A stretch of 64,000 nt of DNA, taken from assembly GCA_963665325.3 (NCBI GenBank), contig CAXXWS020000003.1, forward strand, positions 1,024,001-1,088,000, given 5' to 3'. This document shows positions 35,664 to 40,829 of this stretch, one piece after another. Positions within the stretch are counted from its first letter, which is position 1; every line of letters starts with the position of its first letter. A program made the translations under genes and the position numbers. Below the pieces are notes generated by a model. That model saw only the letters and a program-made list of their open reading frames with translations. It searched no databases and had not been told where the DNA came from. The DNA comes from Alphaproteobacteria bacterium (GTDB lineage: Bacteria; Pseudomonadota; Alphaproteobacteria; Bin95).

Positions 35664-37939
35664 GCGCGATGGCTATCGTCCACCACGGCTCGCACTGGGG
35701 CGCCTTCCGGGCCGAAACGTCGGAGGGGCGCGTCACCGGCGCGCTGCCCTTCGCCAAGGATCCCGAACCTTCCCCCATTGTGACCTCGATACCGGACGCC
35801 GTGCATCATCGCTCGCGCATAGAGGGACCGATGGCGCGGCGCGGCTGGCTGGACGGCGACGGCGGTGAGGGGCGCGGTCGCGATTCCTATGTAGCGCTCG
35901 ACTGGGACCGGGCGGTCGATCTCATCGCGGGGGAGGTCGCGCGCGTCGGCCGCGATTTCGGCAACGCCTCGATCTTCGCCGGCTCCTACGGCTGGGCGAG
36001 CGCCGGGCGCTTCCACCACGCGAAGAGCCAGCTGCAGCGCTTCCTGAACATGGCGGGCGGCTTCACCAGCCAGCTGCACAATTACAGCTATGCGGCGGGC
36101 CTCGCCGTGCTGCCGCACATACTGGGCGGCGTGGAGGCGGCGGCGGGCCCCGTCACGGACTGGCCCTCCATCGTGGAGAACACCGGGCTGATGGTGTCGT
36201 TCGGCGGCCTGCCGGTGAAGAACGCGCAGGTCGATTCCGGCGGCAATGGCGAGCATGCCGCGGCCGCCTATATCCGCGAAGCGCGGGCGCGGGGCGTTCG
36301 CTTCGTTGCCATCTCGCCGCTTGGCGACGACCTGCCGGCGGACCTGGGCGGGGAATGGATTCCGATCCGCCCCGGCACCGACACCGCCATGATGCTGGCC
36401 CTCTCGCAGGTGCTGCTGGCCGAAGGGCTGGCCGACCGGGCATTCCTGGAGCGCTATTGCACGGGCGCCGCGGCCTTCGAGGCCTCGCTGGAAGGCAGAA
36501 CGCCGGAATGGGCCGAGGGGATTACCGGCGTGCCGGCCGCGCGCATCCGTTCGCTCGCCCGCGAGATGGCGGGCGCGCGCACCATGATTTCGACCGCCTG
36601 GGCCCTGCAGCGAGGCGACCATGGGGAGCAGCCCTTCTGGGCCACCGTGGGGCTCGCGGCCTGCCTCGGCCAGATCGGCCTGGCCGGCGGCGGCTTCGGC
36701 TTCGGCTACGGGTGCGTCTCCGGCATCGGCGCGCCGCGCCACGGCCTTTCCGGGCCGACTTTCCCGATCGGGCCGAACCCGGTCGATGACTTCATACCCG
36801 TCTCGCGCATTGCGGACATGCTGCTCGATCCGGGCGGCGACTACGATTTCAATGGCGAGCGGCGGCGCTATCCGGATACGCGCCTCGTCTATTGGGCGGG
36901 CGGCAACCCGTTCCACCACCACCAGGACATCAACCGGCTGATCCGCGCCTTCCGCCAGCCGGAAACCGTGGTCGTGCACGACCCCTGGTGGACGGCGACC
37001 GCGCGCCACGCCGATATCGTCATCCCGGCAACCACGACGCTCGAGCGCAACGACATAGCCGCCGGCAGGCGGGACCGCTTCTGGCTCGCCATGCACCGCG
37101 CCATCGACCCGGTCGGCCGGGCGCGCAACGACCACGATGTCTTCGCCGATATTGCCGACCGCCTCGGCTTCCGCGAGCGCTTCACCGAGGGCCTCGGTGA
37201 GATGGAGTGGCTGCGCCGGATGTATGACGAGGCCTGCGGGCGCGCGGCCGAACGGGGCCTCAACCTGCCGGACTTCGACGCCTTCTGGGACGAGGGCCAT
37301 GTGGAGCTGCCGCGGCCGGCGCGCCCGCGCATCCTGTTCGAGGGCTTCCGCAGGGGCGAGGATGCGCTGGCGACGCCTTCGGGGAAGATTGAGCTCTATT
37401 CGGAGCATGTGGCGGGCTTCGGCTATGAGGACTGCCCCGGCTATCCGGCCTGGCTGCCGCCGAAGGAGTGGCTCGGCGCGGAGGCCGCACAGCAATGGCC
37501 GCTGCACCTGATCTCGAACCAGCCGGCGACGCGCCTCCACGCGCAGCTCGACCAGGGCCGCGTGTCGCAGGCGAGCAAGGTGCAGGGCCGCGAGCCGATC
37601 CGGCTGAACCCGGCGGACGCCGCCGCGCGCGGCATCGCGGACGGGGACGTGGTGCGCGTGTTCAACACCCGCGGCGCGCTGCTCGCGGGCGCGGTGCTGA
37701 GCGGGGAGGTCGTGCCCGGAGTGGCCGTGCTCGCGACCGGCGCCTGGTACGACCCTGCCGACCCTGCGGAGCCGGACAGCCTCGACAAGCACGGCAACCC
37801 CAATGTGCTGACCGCTGACCGCGGCACCTCGAAGCTCGGCCAGGGACCGAGCGCGATGAGCGCGCTGGTCGAGGTCGAGCGTTTCGAAGGCGAACTGCCC
37901 CCCGTCACCGCCTTCGAGCCCCCCGACATCGCTGCATGA
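35660..37939 (+). CDS. Molybdopterin guanine dinucleotide S/N-oxide reductase (BisC/TorA family), cytoplasmic
   Basis: SHWGAF, GSYGWASAGRFH, NYSYAAG (Ser ligand), WAGGNPFHHHQD, GAWYDP; no Tat signal. Confidence 0.9.
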   Translation: MSAMAIVHHGSHWGAFRAETSEGRVTGALPFAKDPEPSPIVTSIPDAVHHRSRIEGPMARRGWLDGDGGEGRGRDSYVALDWDRAVDLIAGEVARVGRDFGNASIFAGSYGWASAGRFHHAKSQLQRFLNMAGGFTSQLHNYSYAAGLAVLPHILGGVEAAAGPVTDWPSIVENTGLMVSFGGLPVKNAQVDSGGNGEHAAAAYIREARARGVRFVAISPLGDDLPADLGGEWIPIRPGTDTAMMLALSQVLLAEGLADRAFLERYCTGAAAFEASLEGRTPEWAEGITGVPAARIRSLAREMAGARTMISTAWALQRGDHGEQPFWATVGLAACLGQIGLAGGGFGFGYGCVSGIGAPRHGLSGPTFPIGPNPVDDFIPVSRIADMLLDPGGDYDFNGERRRYPDTRLVYWAGGNPFHHHQDINRLIRAFRQPETVVVHDPWWTATARHADIVIPATTTLERNDIAAGRRDRFWLAMHRAIDPVGRARNDHDVFADIADRLGFRERFTEGLGEMEWLRRMYDEACGRAAERGLNLPDFDAFWDEGHVELPRPARPRILFEGFRRGEDALATPSGKIELYSEHVAGFGYEDCPGYPAWLPPKEWLGAEAAQQWPLHLISNQPATRLHAQLDQGRVSQASKVQGREPIRLNPADAAARGIADGDVVRVFNTRGALLAGAVLSGEVVPGVAVLATGAWYDPADPAEPDSLDKHGNPNVLTADRGTSKLGQGPSAMSALVEVERFEGELPPVTAFEPPDIAA

Positions 37940-38019
37940 GCGCATCTGGGCAATCGCATTTCAGCTTCGGCGGCTTCGGTCCGCACGGACTCTCTGTAGG
38001 ACCGGACGCTTTCCCCTTT

Positions 38020-38041
38020 CGTCACCCCGGCCCCCGAGCCG
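38020..38041 (+). repeat. REP-like palindrome, left part (interrupted by the IS; continues at 39425-39431)
   Basis: Rejoined sequence CGTCACCCCGGCCCCCGAGCCGGGGTCCA forms a CCCCGG/CCGGGG hairpin. Confidence 0.75.
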
Positions 38042-38056
38042 TGTGTGGACGCCTCC

Positions 38057-38308
38057 CTGGATGCAAGCAGTTTTTTCGGCTTGGTCGGGCCTATGCGGTC
38101 AGGCGGAGTCGTGTGTCCGGTTTCCCTTGTGCGGCACTTGAGTTGCCGCGGGCCAGTATGGAGATACGCGGATCGGGTCCATATCGGGGTCATGCGCTCG
38201 CGGCGCGCCGGCTCAGCCTGGTTTTCCCGATCCCGTCTCATTGACCGTTTGCCCTTACCCCTTGCCTCGGCCTGCCTGCATCCTCCGACGGCTCGCCGCA
38301 CCGCCTTC
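38057..38308 (-). ncRNA. Putative bridge/seek RNA of the IS1111 element (exact ends unknown)
   Basis: An 8-bp stem (38170-38177/38226-38233) encloses segments matching both target halves; second hairpin at 38131-38149; segment 38110-38116 matches the element end. Confidence 0.75.
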
Positions 38309-39340
38309 TCAGGCGGCTGCGGGAGCCCGGTAGGTCTCCTTCTTCACGGCCAGCGCCCACAGGATGCGCGCCATGCGATTGGCGAGCGCGACGGCGACCA
38401 GCTTGCGCTTCCCTGGCTTGCTCGCCAGCAGGCGCGCCAGCCAGGGATCGTTGCACTTGCCCCGGCGGATGGCGTTCTGGATCACCGACATCGCCCCGAC
38501 CACCAGCAGGCGGCGCAGGTCCTTCTGGCCCATCTTCGAGATCTTGCCGAGCCGCGGTTTGCCGGCTGTACTGTGCTGGCGGGGCGTGAGGCCGAGCCAG
38601 GCAGCGAAGTCGCGCCCCTTGCGGAAGGTTTCGAGCGGCGGGGCCAGGGCCTGGAGCGCCAGCGCCGTGACCGGCCCCACCCCCGGCACGGTCATCGCGC
38701 GGGCCGCCTCCTCGTCCTCGCGCGCGGCGGCCCGCAGCGTCCGGTCCAGCTCTCTGACCTTCCCGTCCAGCTCGGCGATCCGTTCCAGCAGCAGTGCCCC
38801 CATCTCGTGCGTCAGCGCCGGCAGAGACGCCCCCTCTTCGCCCTCAAGTGCCCAGGCCAGACGTGCCACATGCGCCGGCCCCTTGGGAGCTACAAGGCCG
38901 AACTCCGCTAGATGGCCCCGCAGCGCGTTGATCGTCTGCGTGCGCTGGCGCACCAGAAGCATGCGCACCCCCAACTGCATCGCCCCCGCCTGGCTCTCCT
39001 CGCTCTTCACCGTCACGAAGCGCATGGTCGGGCGCTGCGCCGCCTCGCAGATCGCCTCCGCGTCCGCCGCGTCGTTCTTCTGCCGCTTCACATAAGGCTT
39101 CACATAAATCGGCGGGATCAGACGAACCTCATGGCCCAGCTTGCCGATCTCGCGGCCCCAGTAATGCGCACCCCCGCACGCCTCCATCGCAACCGTGCAG
39201 CGAGGTTGAGACAACAGAAACGCCAGAACCCGACCCCGCGACAGCTTGCGACGGAACGCCACCGAGCCGTCCGAATACGCGCCGTGCATCTGAAAGCTGT
39301 TCTTCGACAGGTCCACCCCGATGATGCTAACCTCCTTCAT
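38309..39340 (-). CDS. IS110-family DEDD transposase/recombinase
   Basis: IGVDLSK, AMEACG and KNDAADA (D-E-D-D); VPGVGP; WLGLTPRQHSTAGK (catalytic Ser region). Confidence 0.96.
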   Translation of the reverse strand: MKEVSIIGVDLSKNSFQMHGAYSDGSVAFRRKLSRGRVLAFLLSQPRCTVAMEACGGAHYWGREIGKLGHEVRLIPPIYVKPYVKRQKNDAADAEAICEAAQRPTMRFVTVKSEESQAGAMQLGVRMLLVRQRTQTINALRGHLAEFGLVAPKGPAHVARLAWALEGEEGASLPALTHEMGALLLERIAELDGKVRELDRTLRAAAREDEEAARAMTVPGVGPVTALALQALAPPLETFRKGRDFAAWLGLTPRQHSTAGKPRLGKISKMGQKDLRRLLVVGAMSVIQNAIRRGKCNDPWLARLLASKPGKRKLVAVALANRMARILWALAVKKETYRAPAAA

Positions 39341-39504
39341 TGGATGCCTCCTTCCCATTGGGGGTTTCAACAACACCACCATGGCACATTGCGATGCCGT
39401 CGGATGGAGGCGTCCACCCTATCGGGGTCCATCCATGGCTCTCGATACCGCCGCAACCGGTGGAGATGAGGGCGAACCGCCGAAGCTGCCGAGAGAACCG
39501 AGGC

Positions 39505-39533
39505 TGGGCCCCGGATCAGGGTCCGGGGCGACG
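39505..39533 (-). repeat. REP-like palindrome, inverted partner copy
   Basis: Its reverse complement CGTCGCCCCGGACCCTGATCCGGGGCCCA aligns ungapped (24/29) with the rejoined left copy. Confidence 0.75.
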
Positions 39534-39665
39534 CGTTGGGGATATGCAATGCATTGCCGCCGGACGGAGATGTGTGCATGCGATAGGCTCGGCGTCCGGA
39601 GCGGCGACGGGGGGTAGGGCGAAAGGGACGCTCGAATCGGCCCGTTTTCGAATGCGATTGCCCGG

Positions 39666-40829
39666 ATGAGCGCATCGGGGCCGCTTGCCGGCCTTCGGGT
39701 GCTGGAGATAGCGGGCGTCGGGCCGGGGCCGCATTGCGCAATGCTGCTGGCCGACATGGGCGCGGATGTGCTGCGCATCGACCGGGTGCAGCCCCGCTAC
39801 CGGGTCCATGCGCGCACCGACCTGCTGAACCGCGGCCGCCGCTCGGTTGCGCTTGACCTCAAGCAGCCTCGCGCGGTCGAGACTGTGCTCTCGCTGGCGG
39901 AAAAGGCCGACGTGCTGCTGGAGGGCTTCCGGCCGGGCGTCATGGAACGGCTCGGCCTCGGGCCGGAGCCTGTGCTCGCGCGCAATCCGAAGCTCGTCTT
40001 TGCGCGGCTGACCGGCTGGGGGCAGACCGGGCCGCTTGCGGAGGCGGCGGGCCACGACCTCAACTATCTGGCCCTGACCGGCGCGCTTCACGCCGTCGGC
40101 CCGGCCGCCGGCCCGCCGGTACCGCCACTCAACCTCGCCGGCGATTTCGGCGGCGGCGCGCTCTATGCCGCTTTCGGTATCCTGGCGGCGCTGTTCGAGC
40201 GCGGAACCTCCGGAAAGGGGCAGGTGATGGATGCCGCGATGGTGGATGGCGCGGCCTCGCTGATGACCTTCGTGCAGGGGCTCATGGCCGCCGGCTGGTG
40301 GCGGGACGAGCGCGAGGCGAACCTGATCGACGGCGGCGCGCCCTTCTACCGCTGTTATGAGACCGCGGACGGCAAATGGGTGGCGCTCGGCGCCATCGAG
40401 CCCGAGTTCTACGATGCCTTCCTGAGGCTGACCGGCCTCGACGGCGAGGGGCTGCCGAAACGCATGGACCGGGCCAACTGGCCGGAGCTGACCGAGCGCT
40501 TCAAGCGGCTGTTCCTGACGAAGACGCGCGAGGAGTGGTGCGCCCTGCTGGAAGGCACCGACGCCTGCTTCGCCCCGGTGCTGACCCTGGAGGAAGCGCC
40601 CGCCCACCCGCATATGGCGGCGCGGGGCGCGCTCGCCGCCAGCCATGGCGTCGTCCAGTCCGGTCCCGCTCCCCGCTTCTCGCGCACGCCCGGCGCACTC
40701 TCCCGCCCGCCGCCCGCACCCGGCGAGGACACGCGCGCGGCGCTTGCCGACTGGGGACTGGACGAAACGGATATCGACGCTCTCATCGCTTCGGGCGGGG
40801 CGCTGCAGGCGGAAGCGACGGAGGAGTGA
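39666..40829 (+). CDS. CaiB/BaiF CoA-transferase / alpha-methylacyl-CoA racemase family
   Basis: GPLAGLRVLE, LADMGADV, EGFRPGVMERLGLG, GHDLNY, GDFGGG. Confidence 0.93.
   Translation: MSASGPLAGLRVLEIAGVGPGPHCAMLLADMGADVLRIDRVQPRYRVHARTDLLNRGRRSVALDLKQPRAVETVLSLAEKADVLLEGFRPGVMERLGLGPEPVLARNPKLVFARLTGWGQTGPLAEAAGHDLNYLALTGALHAVGPAAGPPVPPLNLAGDFGGGALYAAFGILAALFERGTSGKGQVMDAAMVDGAASLMTFVQGLMAAGWWRDEREANLIDGGAPFYRCYETADGKWVALGAIEPEFYDAFLRLTGLDGEGLPKRMDRANWPELTERFKRLFLTKTREEWCALLEGTDACFAPVLTLEEAPAHPHMAARGALAASHGVVQSGPAPRFSRTPGALSRPPPAPGEDTRAALADWGLDETDIDALIASGGALQAEATEE

What the first reader, a model, noticed from the sequence alone, without database searches (positions are those of the whole stretch)
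38042..39424. IS1111 element whose non-coding end visibly encodes guides for its own target and donor (bridge/seek RNA)
Seen: the pre-insertion target is GAGC-CG-GGGTC. On the transposase strand the 3' non-coding region reads GAGCCGG (38214-38208), a small GCGC hairpin, then GACCCCG (38191-38185), all inside an 8-bp stem. These two segments can pair with opposite strands of the two target halves, and each includes the CG core. Further on, ACACACG (38116-38110) equals the element's own end plus core (38046-38040). Known: IS110/IS1111 recombinases are RNA-guided, and IS1111 members have sub-terminal IRs and a downstream ncRNA. The class is described, but this looks like an intact member with a readable REP-specific programme. 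A second donor guide is not clearly identifiable (only TATC matches).
Basis: partly seen in the sequence, partly recalled or inferred. Interest (0 to 1): 0.85.

Follow-up and report, generated by a model that had tools for sequence, protein, structure and literature searches.

The report
REP-targeting IS1111 element with guide RNA
This is an intact, recently active insertion sequence of the IS1111 group whose 3' non-coding end encodes a guide RNA matching both its insertion site and its own ends; it is a clear new example of a mechanism described in 2024, not a new mechanism.

Summary
Window 38042-39422 is a 1381-bp IS1111-group element. It carries a 343-aa DEDD transposase on the minus strand and 12-bp sub-terminal inverted repeats, with CG core copies at 38040-41 and 39423-24. 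Three identical copies sit at the same position of three different REP-like hairpins.

The 267-nt 3' non-coding region holds a stem with an internal hairpin. This is flanked by GAGCCGG (pairs with the transposase-sense target strand) and GACCCCG(ATA) (pairs with the other strand), followed by a donor guide, ACACACG(A).

In this window alone the two target matches are only modestly unlikely (244 of 20,000 shuffles). The strong evidence comes from relatives. In 43 representative relatives the same two RNA positions match each element's own flanks (0 of 2000 permutations reach the observed mean). The donor guide equals the element's own right end in 52 of 55. The stems show compensatory changes in 16 of 23 pairs.

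The family-consistent second donor guide is CUCCAU (38163-38158), which is imperfect in this element. Transcription is not shown.

Verdict: a new member of a known kind, of modest interest.

The parts
38042..39422 (-). IS1111-group insertion sequence, 1381 bp without the shared core.
   Evidence: Three 100% identical copies in the genome. Their flanks are alike for only about 60-70 nt and unrelated beyond, so these are three separate insertions. Ends were fixed by comparison with 63 relatives.
38040..38041 (-). Core dinucleotide CG at the right junction (transposase-strand orientation).
   Evidence: The same dinucleotide stands at both junctions. In relatives it is CG, TG or AG, and is identical at both ends and in both guides in 45 of 55.
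39423..39424 (-). Core dinucleotide CG at the left junction.
38309..39340 (-). Transposase gene, 343 aa plus stop. GGAGG lies 6 nt upstream of the ATG. Candidate DEDD residues are D10, E53, D90 and D93. C-terminal motif is GLTPRQHS-TA-G.
   Evidence: ORF. (PF01548 E 3.8e-13; PF02371 E 3.7e-21). (NF033542, 303.6 bits). (motif positions). The DEDD assignment is by position and motif, not by structure.
39406..39417 (-). Left sub-terminal inverted repeat (GTGGACGCCTCC on the transposase strand), 5 nt (ATAGG) from the left terminus.
38045..38056 (-). Right sub-terminal inverted repeat (GGAGGCGTCCAC on the transposase strand), 3 nt (ACA) from the right terminus.
38042..38308 (-). 3' non-coding region (267 nt) that encodes the guide RNA. 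The 5' non-coding region is only 82 nt.
   Evidence: Covariance model R1, built from relatives, places the RNA at 38108-38237 (99 bits, E 9e-22).
38170..38233 (-). Target-binding module. Outer stem 38233-38226 / 38177-38170. Three-pair helix CCA 38221-38219 / UGG 38181-38179. Capping hairpin 38206-38194.
   Evidence: MFE fold. Consensus fold of 56 relatives. In one search helices 1-4 had 12 of 14 pairs with changes on both sides.
38208..38214 (-). 5' target guide GAGCCGG. It is complementary to the transposase-sense strand of the target (C-CG-GCTC) and covers the core.
   Evidence: At this RNA position, 26 of 43 representative relatives match their own target over 7 nt or more, against 35 of 1806 cross pairings.
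38182..38191 (-). 3' target guide GACCC-CG. It is identical to the transposase-sense strand, so it pairs with the other strand. Its AUA extension matches the first 3 nt of the element's left end.
   Evidence: In 27 of 43 relatives the match to the element's own left junction is 7 nt or more, against 56 of 1806 cross pairings. The AU after the core is conserved in most relatives.
38158..38163 (-). Proposed 5' donor guide CUCCAU, complementary to left-end positions 1-6. The family left end is ATGGNN; here it is ATAGGG, giving 4 Watson-Crick pairs and 1 wobble of 6.
   Evidence: Left-end position 4 (G or C) always faces C, U or G in a pairable way. All ATGC left ends face GCAU, but those probably form one clade.
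38119..38154 (-). Conserved stem-loop between the two donor guides. GCGGC 38149-38145 pairs with GCCGC 38135-38131. The outer GGCC helix is half broken in this element (3' strand AACC).
   Evidence: helix 6: 4 of 5 pairs with changes on both sides; helix 5: no pair with a change on both sides, and the only non-paired cells are this element and L015.
38109..38116 (-). 3' donor guide ACACA-CG-A. It is identical to the last 5 nt of the right end, plus the core, plus the first nt of the left end (the circle junction).
   Evidence: In 52 of 55 relatives the 5 nt equal the element's own right end, including all 14 with a non-consensus end (ATACA 5, ACAGA 3, ACAAA 3, ACATA 2, ACGGA 1).
38061..38066 (-). 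TTGCAT, a -35-like hexamer 19 nt from the right terminus. In the circular form a 17-nt spacer would bring it to a -10-like hexamer made of CA + core + AT.
   Evidence: a TTGNNN hexamer lies 19 nt from the end in 52 of 56 relatives, 20 nt in 3, and is absent in 1. No sigma-70-like promoter was found in the integrated copy. The function is inferred, not tested.
38020..38041 (+). Left part of the interrupted REP-like hairpin (ACCCCGGC-CCCCGA-GC|CG on the + strand). The rest continues at 39425-39430.
   Evidence: The uninterrupted 22-mer occurs 9 times in the genome.

Best explanation
This is a functional IS1111-group insertion sequence that chooses its insertion site with an RNA made from its own 3' non-coding region.

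Shown by sequence and comparison:
- The RNA region folds into a conserved stem that encloses an internal loop capped by a small hairpin.
- The 5' side of the loop (GAGCCGG) is complementary to one strand of the REP-like target. The 3' side (GACCCCG) is complementary to the other. Both cover the CG at which strands are exchanged.
- A second module follows. Its 3' segment (ACACACGA) copies the right end plus core plus the first left-end base, which is the junction of the excised circle.
- A 5' segment (CUCCAU) can pair, imperfectly here, with the left end.

Inferred from the IS1111 and IS621 literature:
- The element excises as a circle.
- Joining the ends creates a promoter (TTGCAT, then 17 nt, then CA-CG-AT) that drives the transposase and the RNA.
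- The DEDD/Ser-Thr recombinase bound to the RNA aligns the circle junction with a REP copy and exchanges strands at CG.
- The AU(A) that follows the core in the 3' target guide would then pair with the newly joined left end, like the handshake guides of IS621.
For: Element and activity:
- Transposase families.
- 12-bp sub-terminal repeats, with a long 3' and a short 5' non-coding region.
- Three identical copies in three unrelated places, each at the same base of a REP-like hairpin.
- 30 exact empty sites remain in the genome, 21 of them in hairpins.

Family test on 43 representatives with distinct guides and targets:
- Longest match of the 5' loop strand to the element's own target has mean 6.88 nt, against 3.69 for cross pairings.
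- For the 3' strand the means are 7.12 and 3.84.
- 0 of 2000 permutations reach either mean. Wrong-strand controls give 3.79 and 3.28.

Natural re-targeting in the same genome: the 73%-identical copy on contig C5 keeps the scaffold, with compensatory stem changes, but carries guides that match its own different flanks and its own right end ACAGA.

Donor guide and core:
- 52 of 55 relatives match their own right end, including all five variant classes.
- The core dinucleotide is the same at both junctions and in both guides in 45 of 55.

Structure:
- 95.1% of cells are paired, against 83.9% in shuffles.
- 16 of 23 pairs change on both sides.
- 0 of 500 shuffles reach any of the five measures. 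Slid controls give 22-44% paired.

Link to known elements:
- Model R1 finds the same RNA downstream of the transposase gene of an annotated IS5075 (32.7 bits, E 6e-8) and of another Klebsiella-plasmid IS110-family element (67.8 bits).
- The order and overlap of the guides match IS1111 seekRNAs.
Against: - No RNA has been shown. The only hint is one 163-nt contig, identical to 38124-38286, in an RNA library (X15). The tool warns this may be DNA.
- No sigma-70-like promoter lies in the integrated copy.
- Folding energies are not unusual: z = -1.56, -1.40 and -0.02.
- In this window alone the two target 7-mers arise in 1.2% of shuffles, and a further chance 7-mer exists at 38295-38289.
- 17 of 43 representatives have a 5'-guide match under 7 nt, and 16 of 43 a 3'-guide match under 7 nt. 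Some copies (L016, L017) sit in flanks that do not fit their guides.
- The donor module is the weaker part:
  - No closing helix is predicted for it.
  - Its outer helix is half broken in this element.
  - CUCCAU mismatches this element's left end at one position.
  - For ISEc11 the short 82-nt seekRNA alone sufficed for movement. If that RNA lacks the donor module, which I could not check, RNA reading of the ends would be dispensable there.
Confidence: 0.88

Rival explanations
1. Same element and same RNA-guided target choice, but the RNA reads only the target. The ends would be recognised by the protein through the sub-terminal inverted repeats. The internal ACACACG would be a DNA-level second copy of the end (a protein-binding repeat), or have no function.
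For: - For ISEc11 the 82-nt short seekRNA sufficed for transposition.
- No closing helix is predicted for a donor loop.
- The 5' donor segment is imperfect here and has only one clear compensatory class.
- A repeat bound by the same protein would also change together with the terminus.
Against: - The internal copy includes the core dinucleotide and the first left-end base. That is the circle junction, not just the end. Its core base follows the target core: TG, CG or AG in 45 of 55.
- All five right-end variants are mirrored.
- The arrangement (guide, stem-loop, guide) repeats that of the target module.
- Durrant et al. report donor-complementary nucleotides in IS1111 RNAs.
Confidence: 0.09
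2. The guide-like matches in this copy are chance, or a by-product of GC-rich repeats, and the element is an ordinary site-specific IS with protein-only targeting.
For: - 1.2% of shuffles reproduce the pair of 7-mers, and a third chance match exists.
- Folding z-scores are unremarkable.
Against: - The own-versus-cross test across 43 relatives: 0 of 2000 permutations.
- Guides change with the target in the 73% relative in the same genome.
- Stem covariation.
- Experimental demonstration of RNA guidance in four IS1111 members.
Confidence: 0.02
3. The element is a recently immobilised relic. The guides are real but the system no longer moves, because of the TA variant of the catalytic motif, the left-end mismatch and the weakened donor stem.
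For: - The ..HS-TA-G motif was seen in only 1 of 79 relatives with a recognisable motif, out of 82 loci scanned, plus this element.
- The left end ATAGGG mismatches CUCCAU.
- The outer donor helix keeps 2 of 4 pairs.
Against: - Three copies are 100% identical over 1381 bp in unrelated places, with an intact ORF.
- The same derived features occur in a 90%-identical element of another genome, L015.
- TA is noted as an occasional natural variant.
Confidence: 0.05

Closest known systems
IS1111-family seekRNA elements ISEc11, ISPa11, ISKpn4 and ISPst6 (Siddiquee et al. 2024, PMC11187229; outline and sections 6, 8, 9, 10, 13, 14 read)
   Same: - DEDD transposase of about 340 aa, sub-terminal inverted repeats, and the long non-coding region downstream of tnp.
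- Two short RNA segments matching opposite strands of the target, overlapping at the insertion point, with the top-strand-complementary one 5' of the other.
- Like ISPa11, it targets a REP.
- A relative with the same scaffold but different guides and target is found, as with ISEc11 and ISXne4.
   Different: - A different host group and a different target (GACCC-CG-GCTC in a REP-like hairpin).
- Nothing has been tested experimentally here.
- A second module matching the element's own ends is evident here. The parts of that paper I read do not assign a donor-reading role to the long seekRNA.
- I had no sequences of those four IS, so I made no direct alignment.
IS621 bridge RNA (IS110 group; Durrant et al. 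2024, PMC11208160; Hiraizumi et al. 2024, PMC11208158; passages read)
   Same: - Bispecific logic: a target loop and donor segments.
- Each DNA is read on both strands around a shared core dinucleotide.
- Bases after the core pair with the partner DNA after exchange (handshake guides).
- It targets a REP.
   Different: - The RNA lies in the right end (3' of tnp), not in the left end.
- The guide order is reversed relative to the IS110 type.
- The sub-terminal repeats are long (12 bp).
- The donor segments flank a stem-loop, with no predicted closing helix, rather than lying in a simple internal loop.
- The core is NG (here CG) rather than CT.
IS4321 / IS5075 (IS1111 group, targeting Tn21-family terminal repeats; names as annotated in plasmid records)
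   Same: - The transposase is 39.2% identical over residues 1-339 of 343.
- The RNA model built from this element's relatives hits the IS5075 3' non-coding region at the equivalent place (32.7 bits, E 6e-8).
   Different: Distant sequence, different target, and different hosts (enterobacterial plasmids).
ISPpu9 / Ssr9 of Pseudomonas putida (PMC12288879; only the search listing and abstract were seen)
   Same: An IS110-family element inserted in REP sequences, with a small RNA gene downstream of the transposase gene.
   Different: ISPpu9 has extra stand-alone copies of the RNA gene. Here the model search of the element's own genome found the RNA only inside the four elements. Only 150 of 5249 first-look candidates were scored.

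Membership tests
IS1111 group of the IS110 family | DEDD (RuvC-like) transposase with the IS116/IS110/IS902 C-terminal domain | tested here: met
   PF01548 (E 3.8e-13) and PF02371 (E 3.7e-21). NF033542 at 303.6 bits against a cut-off of 140.
IS1111 group of the IS110 family | Sub-terminal inverted repeats of 7-17 bp with short terminal extensions | tested here: met
   The 12-bp repeat GTGGACGCCTCC lies at 39417-39406 and 38056-38045, with extensions of 5 and 3 nt. The length range is quoted from PMC11208160.
IS1111 group of the IS110 family | The longer non-coding region lies downstream of tnp | tested here: met
   267 nt downstream against 82 nt upstream.
IS1111 group of the IS110 family | Transposase of 330-350 aa with a GL-P----S/T-G motif | tested here: met
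   343 aa, with GLTPRQHS-TA-G at residues 250-260. The TA form is named as an occasional variant. Relatives have TG (40) or SG (36) among the 79 loci with a recognisable motif, out of 82 scanned.
IS1111 group of the IS110 family | Transposase related over its full length to accepted IS1111 members | tested here: met
   39.2% identity over residues 1-339 to transposases annotated IS4321 or IS5075. No tree was built with IS110-type outgroups.
IS1111 group of the IS110 family | Orientation-specific insertion at one position of a specific target | tested here: met
   Three independent copies lie at the same base and in the same orientation of the REP-like hairpin.
IS1111-type seekRNA | [quoted passage not shown] | tested here: met
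   This assumes that the paper's 'top' strand is the transposase-sense strand.
IS1111-type seekRNA | The RNA is made, binds the transposase, and is essential for movement | not testable with these tools
   The only hint is one exact 163-nt contig in an RNA library. This does not prove transcription.
IS1111-type seekRNA | A circular intermediate with a junction promoter | not testable with these tools
   The motif arrangement is compatible: TTGCAT lies 19 nt from the end, and this spacing is conserved in 52 of 56 relatives. No joints were seen in the four runs laid, but all were contigs, which drop rare forms.
IS110-type bridge RNA (IS621-like) | The RNA is encoded in the left end, upstream of the recombinase gene | tested here: not met
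   The RNA lies downstream, in the right end.
IS110-type bridge RNA (IS621-like) | Two simple internal loops (target-binding and donor-binding), each closed by helices | tested here: inconclusive
   The target loop is present, with covariation. No closing helix is predicted around the donor segments.
Any curated Rfam family | A match to a covariance model of Rfam 15 | tested here: not met
   Only three sub-threshold chance hits, none in the non-coding region.

The most novel reading that the evidence does not exclude
The IS1111-type RNA is a full two-specificity bridge RNA with its own architecture.
- The element's ends are read by two RNA segments that flank a conserved stem-loop (NNCCAU for the left end; right-end 5 nt + core + A), rather than by an internal loop.
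- A conserved AU after the core in the target guide acts as a built-in handshake with the left end.

If this is right, donor choice in IS1111 elements is programmable by RNA. The 'long seekRNA' then has a defined job that the short form lacks.
Probability: 0.55. Interest if true: 0.5.

Novelty: new member of a known kind. Interest (0 to 1): 0.3.

Why it matters
For the biology of this genome, the finding explains why the element sits only in one repeat family. It also predicts where the element can go next: 30 exact sites remain.

For the field it is one more natural IS1111 guide RNA with a fully readable programme. It comes with a set of more than 40 relatives in which target guides, core and right-end guide can be read off by position.

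That set gives comparative support for RNA reading of the donor ends in IS1111 elements. In the passages I read, this step is predicted (PMC11208160) but not tested. The set also offers compact natural variants for anyone engineering these recombinases.

It does not open a new mechanism.

Tried and rejected
- **Rfam scan of 37500-40000.** Only chance hits.
- **Single-sequence folding energies.** Not distinguishable from shuffles, so they were not used as support.
Rejected because relatives whose left end begins ATG also have TATC.
- **A handshake role for the bases after the core in the donor guide.** They match the right flank in some relatives (GC in the L063/L068/L085 group) but not generally, including not here. 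This was read by eye from the tables and then dropped.
- **A closing helix for the donor module.** None was predicted in four sub-alignments.
- **Stand-alone copies of the RNA gene in the element's own genome.** None was found beyond the four elements. One weak hit (16.6 bits, E 0.93) was ignored.
- **An empty site for the C5 relative.** No match at up to 1 mismatch.
- **Sequencing runs.** All were held as contigs. Four RNA-library runs were laid. They gave no joints, no RNA ends and no strand information, so they show neither transcription nor circles. Parts without cover mean nothing. No DNA run was laid for the circle junction.
- **One script failed on a key error.** It was rewritten.
- **Not attempted.** Protein structure prediction, complex prediction and the large protein searches were not run, because the family assignment was already unambiguous.
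Full report
**What is there.** On the minus strand of window 38042-39422 lies a 1381-bp element.
- It has one open reading frame, 39340-38309, of 343 aa, preceded by GGAGG.
- The protein carries the two domains of IS110-family transposases: PF01548 (E 3.8e-13) and PF02371 (E 3.7e-21).
- It scores 303.6 bits on NCBIfam NF033542, 'IS110 family RNA-guided transposase'.
- Twelve-base inverted repeats (GTGGACGCCTCC) lie 5 nt inside the left terminus and 3 nt inside the right terminus.
- The 5' non-coding part is 82 nt and the 3' part is 267 nt.
- The dinucleotide CG stands at both junctions (38040-41 and 39423-24).

**Copies and target.**
- The genome (5.58 Mb, 67% G+C) holds three copies that are 100% identical.
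- Their flanks are alike for only about 60-70 nt and unrelated beyond that. They are therefore separate insertions.
- All three are at the same base and in the same orientation of a repeated hairpin...GTCACCCCGGC-CCCCGA-GC|CG|GGGTCCA....
- The uninterrupted 11-mer GAGCCGGGGTC occurs 30 times. In 21 of these the complementary arm lies within 45 nt upstream. The uninterrupted 22-mer occurs 9 times.

**The observation.**
- The 8-bp stem, the GCGC hairpin and the two 7-mers appear in the minimum-energy fold.
- Folding energies are not better than shuffles: z = -1.56, -1.40 and -0.02.
- On this window alone, 244 of 20,000 dinucleotide shuffles of the non-coding region give a core-spanning 7-mer of each polarity in the right order within 60 nt.
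- A further chance 7-mer match exists at 38295-38289.
- The single sequence is therefore suggestive only.

**Relatives.** A scan of one genome per species returned 80 loci encoding relatives at 48-90% identity. The set was reduced as follows:
1. 67 had recognisable sub-terminal repeats at the expected spacing.
2. 63 of these had a left end beginning AT. L051, L052, L054 and L059 were dropped as mis-set.
3. 57 had distinct non-coding regions after 6 duplicates were removed.
4. One of these, L069, proved not to be an element and was dropped later.

On the transposase strand the junctions read: left flank, NG, ATGGNGTGGAC ... GTCCACACA, NG, right flank. The NG core is CG, TG or AG.

Aligned non-coding regions show a constant scaffold.

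**Test of target guides.** 51 elements had 10 nt of flank on both sides. I took one representative per distinct guide pair and target, giving 43. For each I measured the longest exact match between each loop strand and the element's own target or left junction, and compared this with all 1806 cross pairings.

| Measure | Own | Cross pairings |
|---|---|---|
| 5' strand, mean longest match | 6.88 nt | 3.69 nt |
| 5' strand, match of 7 nt or more | 26 of 43 | 35 of 1806 |
| 3' strand, mean longest match | 7.12 nt | 3.84 nt |
| 3' strand, match of 7 nt or more | 27 of 43 | 56 of 1806 |

- No permutation out of 2000 reached either observed mean.
- The wrong-strand controls gave 3.79 and 3.28.
- A sizeable minority fall below 7 nt (17 and 16 of 43). 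Some of these are copies in flanks that do not fit their guides (L016, L017). Others may have shifted registers or mis-set ends.

**Re-targeting in the same genome.** The 73%-identical element on contig C5 keeps the scaffold, with two compensatory changes in the outer stem. Its guides are different: they match its own flanks over 8 and 9 nt, and its own right end ACAGA.

**Structure.** RNAalifold on 56 sequences predicts four features:
- the outer stem;
- a three-pair helix (CCA/UGG) that closes the guide loop;
- the capping hairpin;
- a second stem-loop further downstream.

Counting pairs on that structure gives:
- 95.1% of cells paired, against 83.9% in shuffles and 22-44% when partners are slid;
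- 16 of 23 pairs with changes on both sides;
- 0 of 500 shuffles reaching any of the five measures.

The structure was derived from the same alignment, which favours it somewhat. The slid controls and the many pair types (for example five types at columns 54/68) are nevertheless strong.

**Donor side.**
- In 52 of 55 relatives the five bases at that position equal the last five bases of the element's own right end. This includes every one of the 14 elements with a non-consensus end: ATACA 5, ACAGA 3, ACAAA 3, ACATA 2, ACGGA 1.
- The three exceptions are L020, L026 and L055.
- The next two bases follow the core. In 45 of 55, the junction cores and the cores in both guides agree.
- The base after that is A in this element and many relatives, matching the first base of the left end. 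The segment thus copies the circle junction.

Just 5' of the stem-loop, NNCCAU faces left-end positions 1-6.
- Position 4 of the left end is always pairable with the RNA: G with C or U, and C with G.
- All ATGC left ends face GCAU. These probably form one clade, so this counts as one event.
- In the window element the left end is ATAGGG, and CUCCAU gives 4 Watson-Crick pairs, one wobble and one mismatch.
- No helix closing this module is predicted.
- In this element and L015 the outer helix of the stem-loop keeps 2 of 4 pairs.

**Extension of the 3' target guide.** After the core the RNA reads AU in most relatives and AUA here, matching the first bases of the left end.
- The match to the occupied left junction is therefore 10 nt, against 7 nt to the empty site.
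- In IS621, dinucleotides placed like this pair with the partner DNA after strand exchange and modulate both insertion and excision (PMC11208158 passages; PMC13626964 abstract).
- For IS1111 members the donor must sit in the correct flanks to move.
- Either reading fits. Neither is tested here.

**Expression.**
- No sigma-70-like promoter is found in the integrated copy.
- TTGCAT lies 19 nt from the right terminus. A TTGNNN hexamer lies 19 nt from the end in 52 of 56 relatives, 20 nt in 3, and is absent in 1.
- Joining the ends would place CA + core + AT 17 nt downstream of it. This is a weak -10 with the key A2 and T6.
- This agrees with the junction promoter described for the family, but it is an inference.
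- Of four RNA-library runs laid as contigs, one holds a 163-nt contig identical to 38124-38286.
- Other contigs match only the conserved 38217-38261 piece and diverge exactly where the 5' guide begins. One carries the guide set of the L016/L019 type.
- The tool warns that such contigs do not prove transcription.

**Relation to known elements.**
- The transposase is 39.2% identical over residues 1-339 to transposases annotated IS4321 and IS5075.
- A covariance model built from the relatives (R1) finds the RNA 75-90 nt downstream of the transposase gene of an annotated IS5075 (32.7 bits) and of another Klebsiella-plasmid element (67.8 bits).
- In the element's own genome R1 finds only the four elements.
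- Among 41 genomes of the host's kin, including the host itself, 16 have hits at E <= 1e-5, and one has 39 copies.
- The family is therefore common.
- The literature already reports three things. RNA guidance has been shown in four IS1111 members. Bridge RNAs are predicted in the right end of 93% of ISfinder IS1111s. Donor-complementary nucleotides lie 'in a multi-loop structure'.
- I could not open the supplements of either paper, and I have no access to ISfinder. Whether this very element is catalogued is unknown.

**Verdict.**
- The element is a new member of a known kind.
- What this analysis adds is a position-by-position reading of the programme. It also adds comparative support for RNA reading of the right end and core in this branch of the IS1111 group, and a corrected second donor guide.
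- Interest is modest.

Noticed in passing
Own genome C5:113347-114745 (locus L004): A 73%-identical relative with the same RNA scaffold but different guides and target. Its target loop carries a 22-nt tandem duplication (capping hairpin plus the start of the 3' guide). Its right-junction core is TC, while the left core and both guides have TG. It is single-copy, and no empty site exists in the genome at up to 1 mismatch.
   Followed up: partly
window 38182-38184, 39418-39422, 38119-38122; locus L015: This element and its 90% relative L015 share four derived features. The left end is ATAGGG instead of ATGG.. (also in L020). The 3' target guide ends AUA. The outer helix of the donor stem-loop is half broken. 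The catalytic motif reads TA instead of TG or SG. The three identical copies argue that the element is nevertheless active.
   Followed up: partly
L016 and L017 (same assembly as L019): Copies with the same guides as L019 and L024 sit in flanks that do not match those guides: the right side only in L016, both sides in L017. This could be off-target insertion or later recombination between copies.
   Followed up: no
L033, L035, L037, L060: Four copies in two genomes have TG at the left junction but CG at the right junction and in both guides. Their 3' guide matches the inferred empty site better than the occupied junction.
   Followed up: no
window 38238-38308: The stretch between the stop codon and the RNA scaffold contains a block conserved across relatives (GUAAGGGCAAACGGUC, about 38259-38244). 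The block is also present in RNA-library contigs from other relatives. Its role is unknown; it could be a processing or binding site.
   Followed up: no
Own genome C1:1733432-1733627 (locus L005): A 186-bp fragment, 90% identical to the left end and the first 37 codons of the transposase gene, with an internal stop. It is a truncated remnant of a related copy.
   Followed up: no
window 39425-39520: The flank next to the element is itself repeated elsewhere (82-84% at C3:720174 and C1:961716). The C1 copy carries an uninterrupted target site.
   Followed up: partly
Own genome C4:880156-880977: A distant IS110-family transposase homologue (31% identity over residues 48-327) lies on the same contig. 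Weaker partial matches occur on C1, C2 and C5.
   Followed up: no
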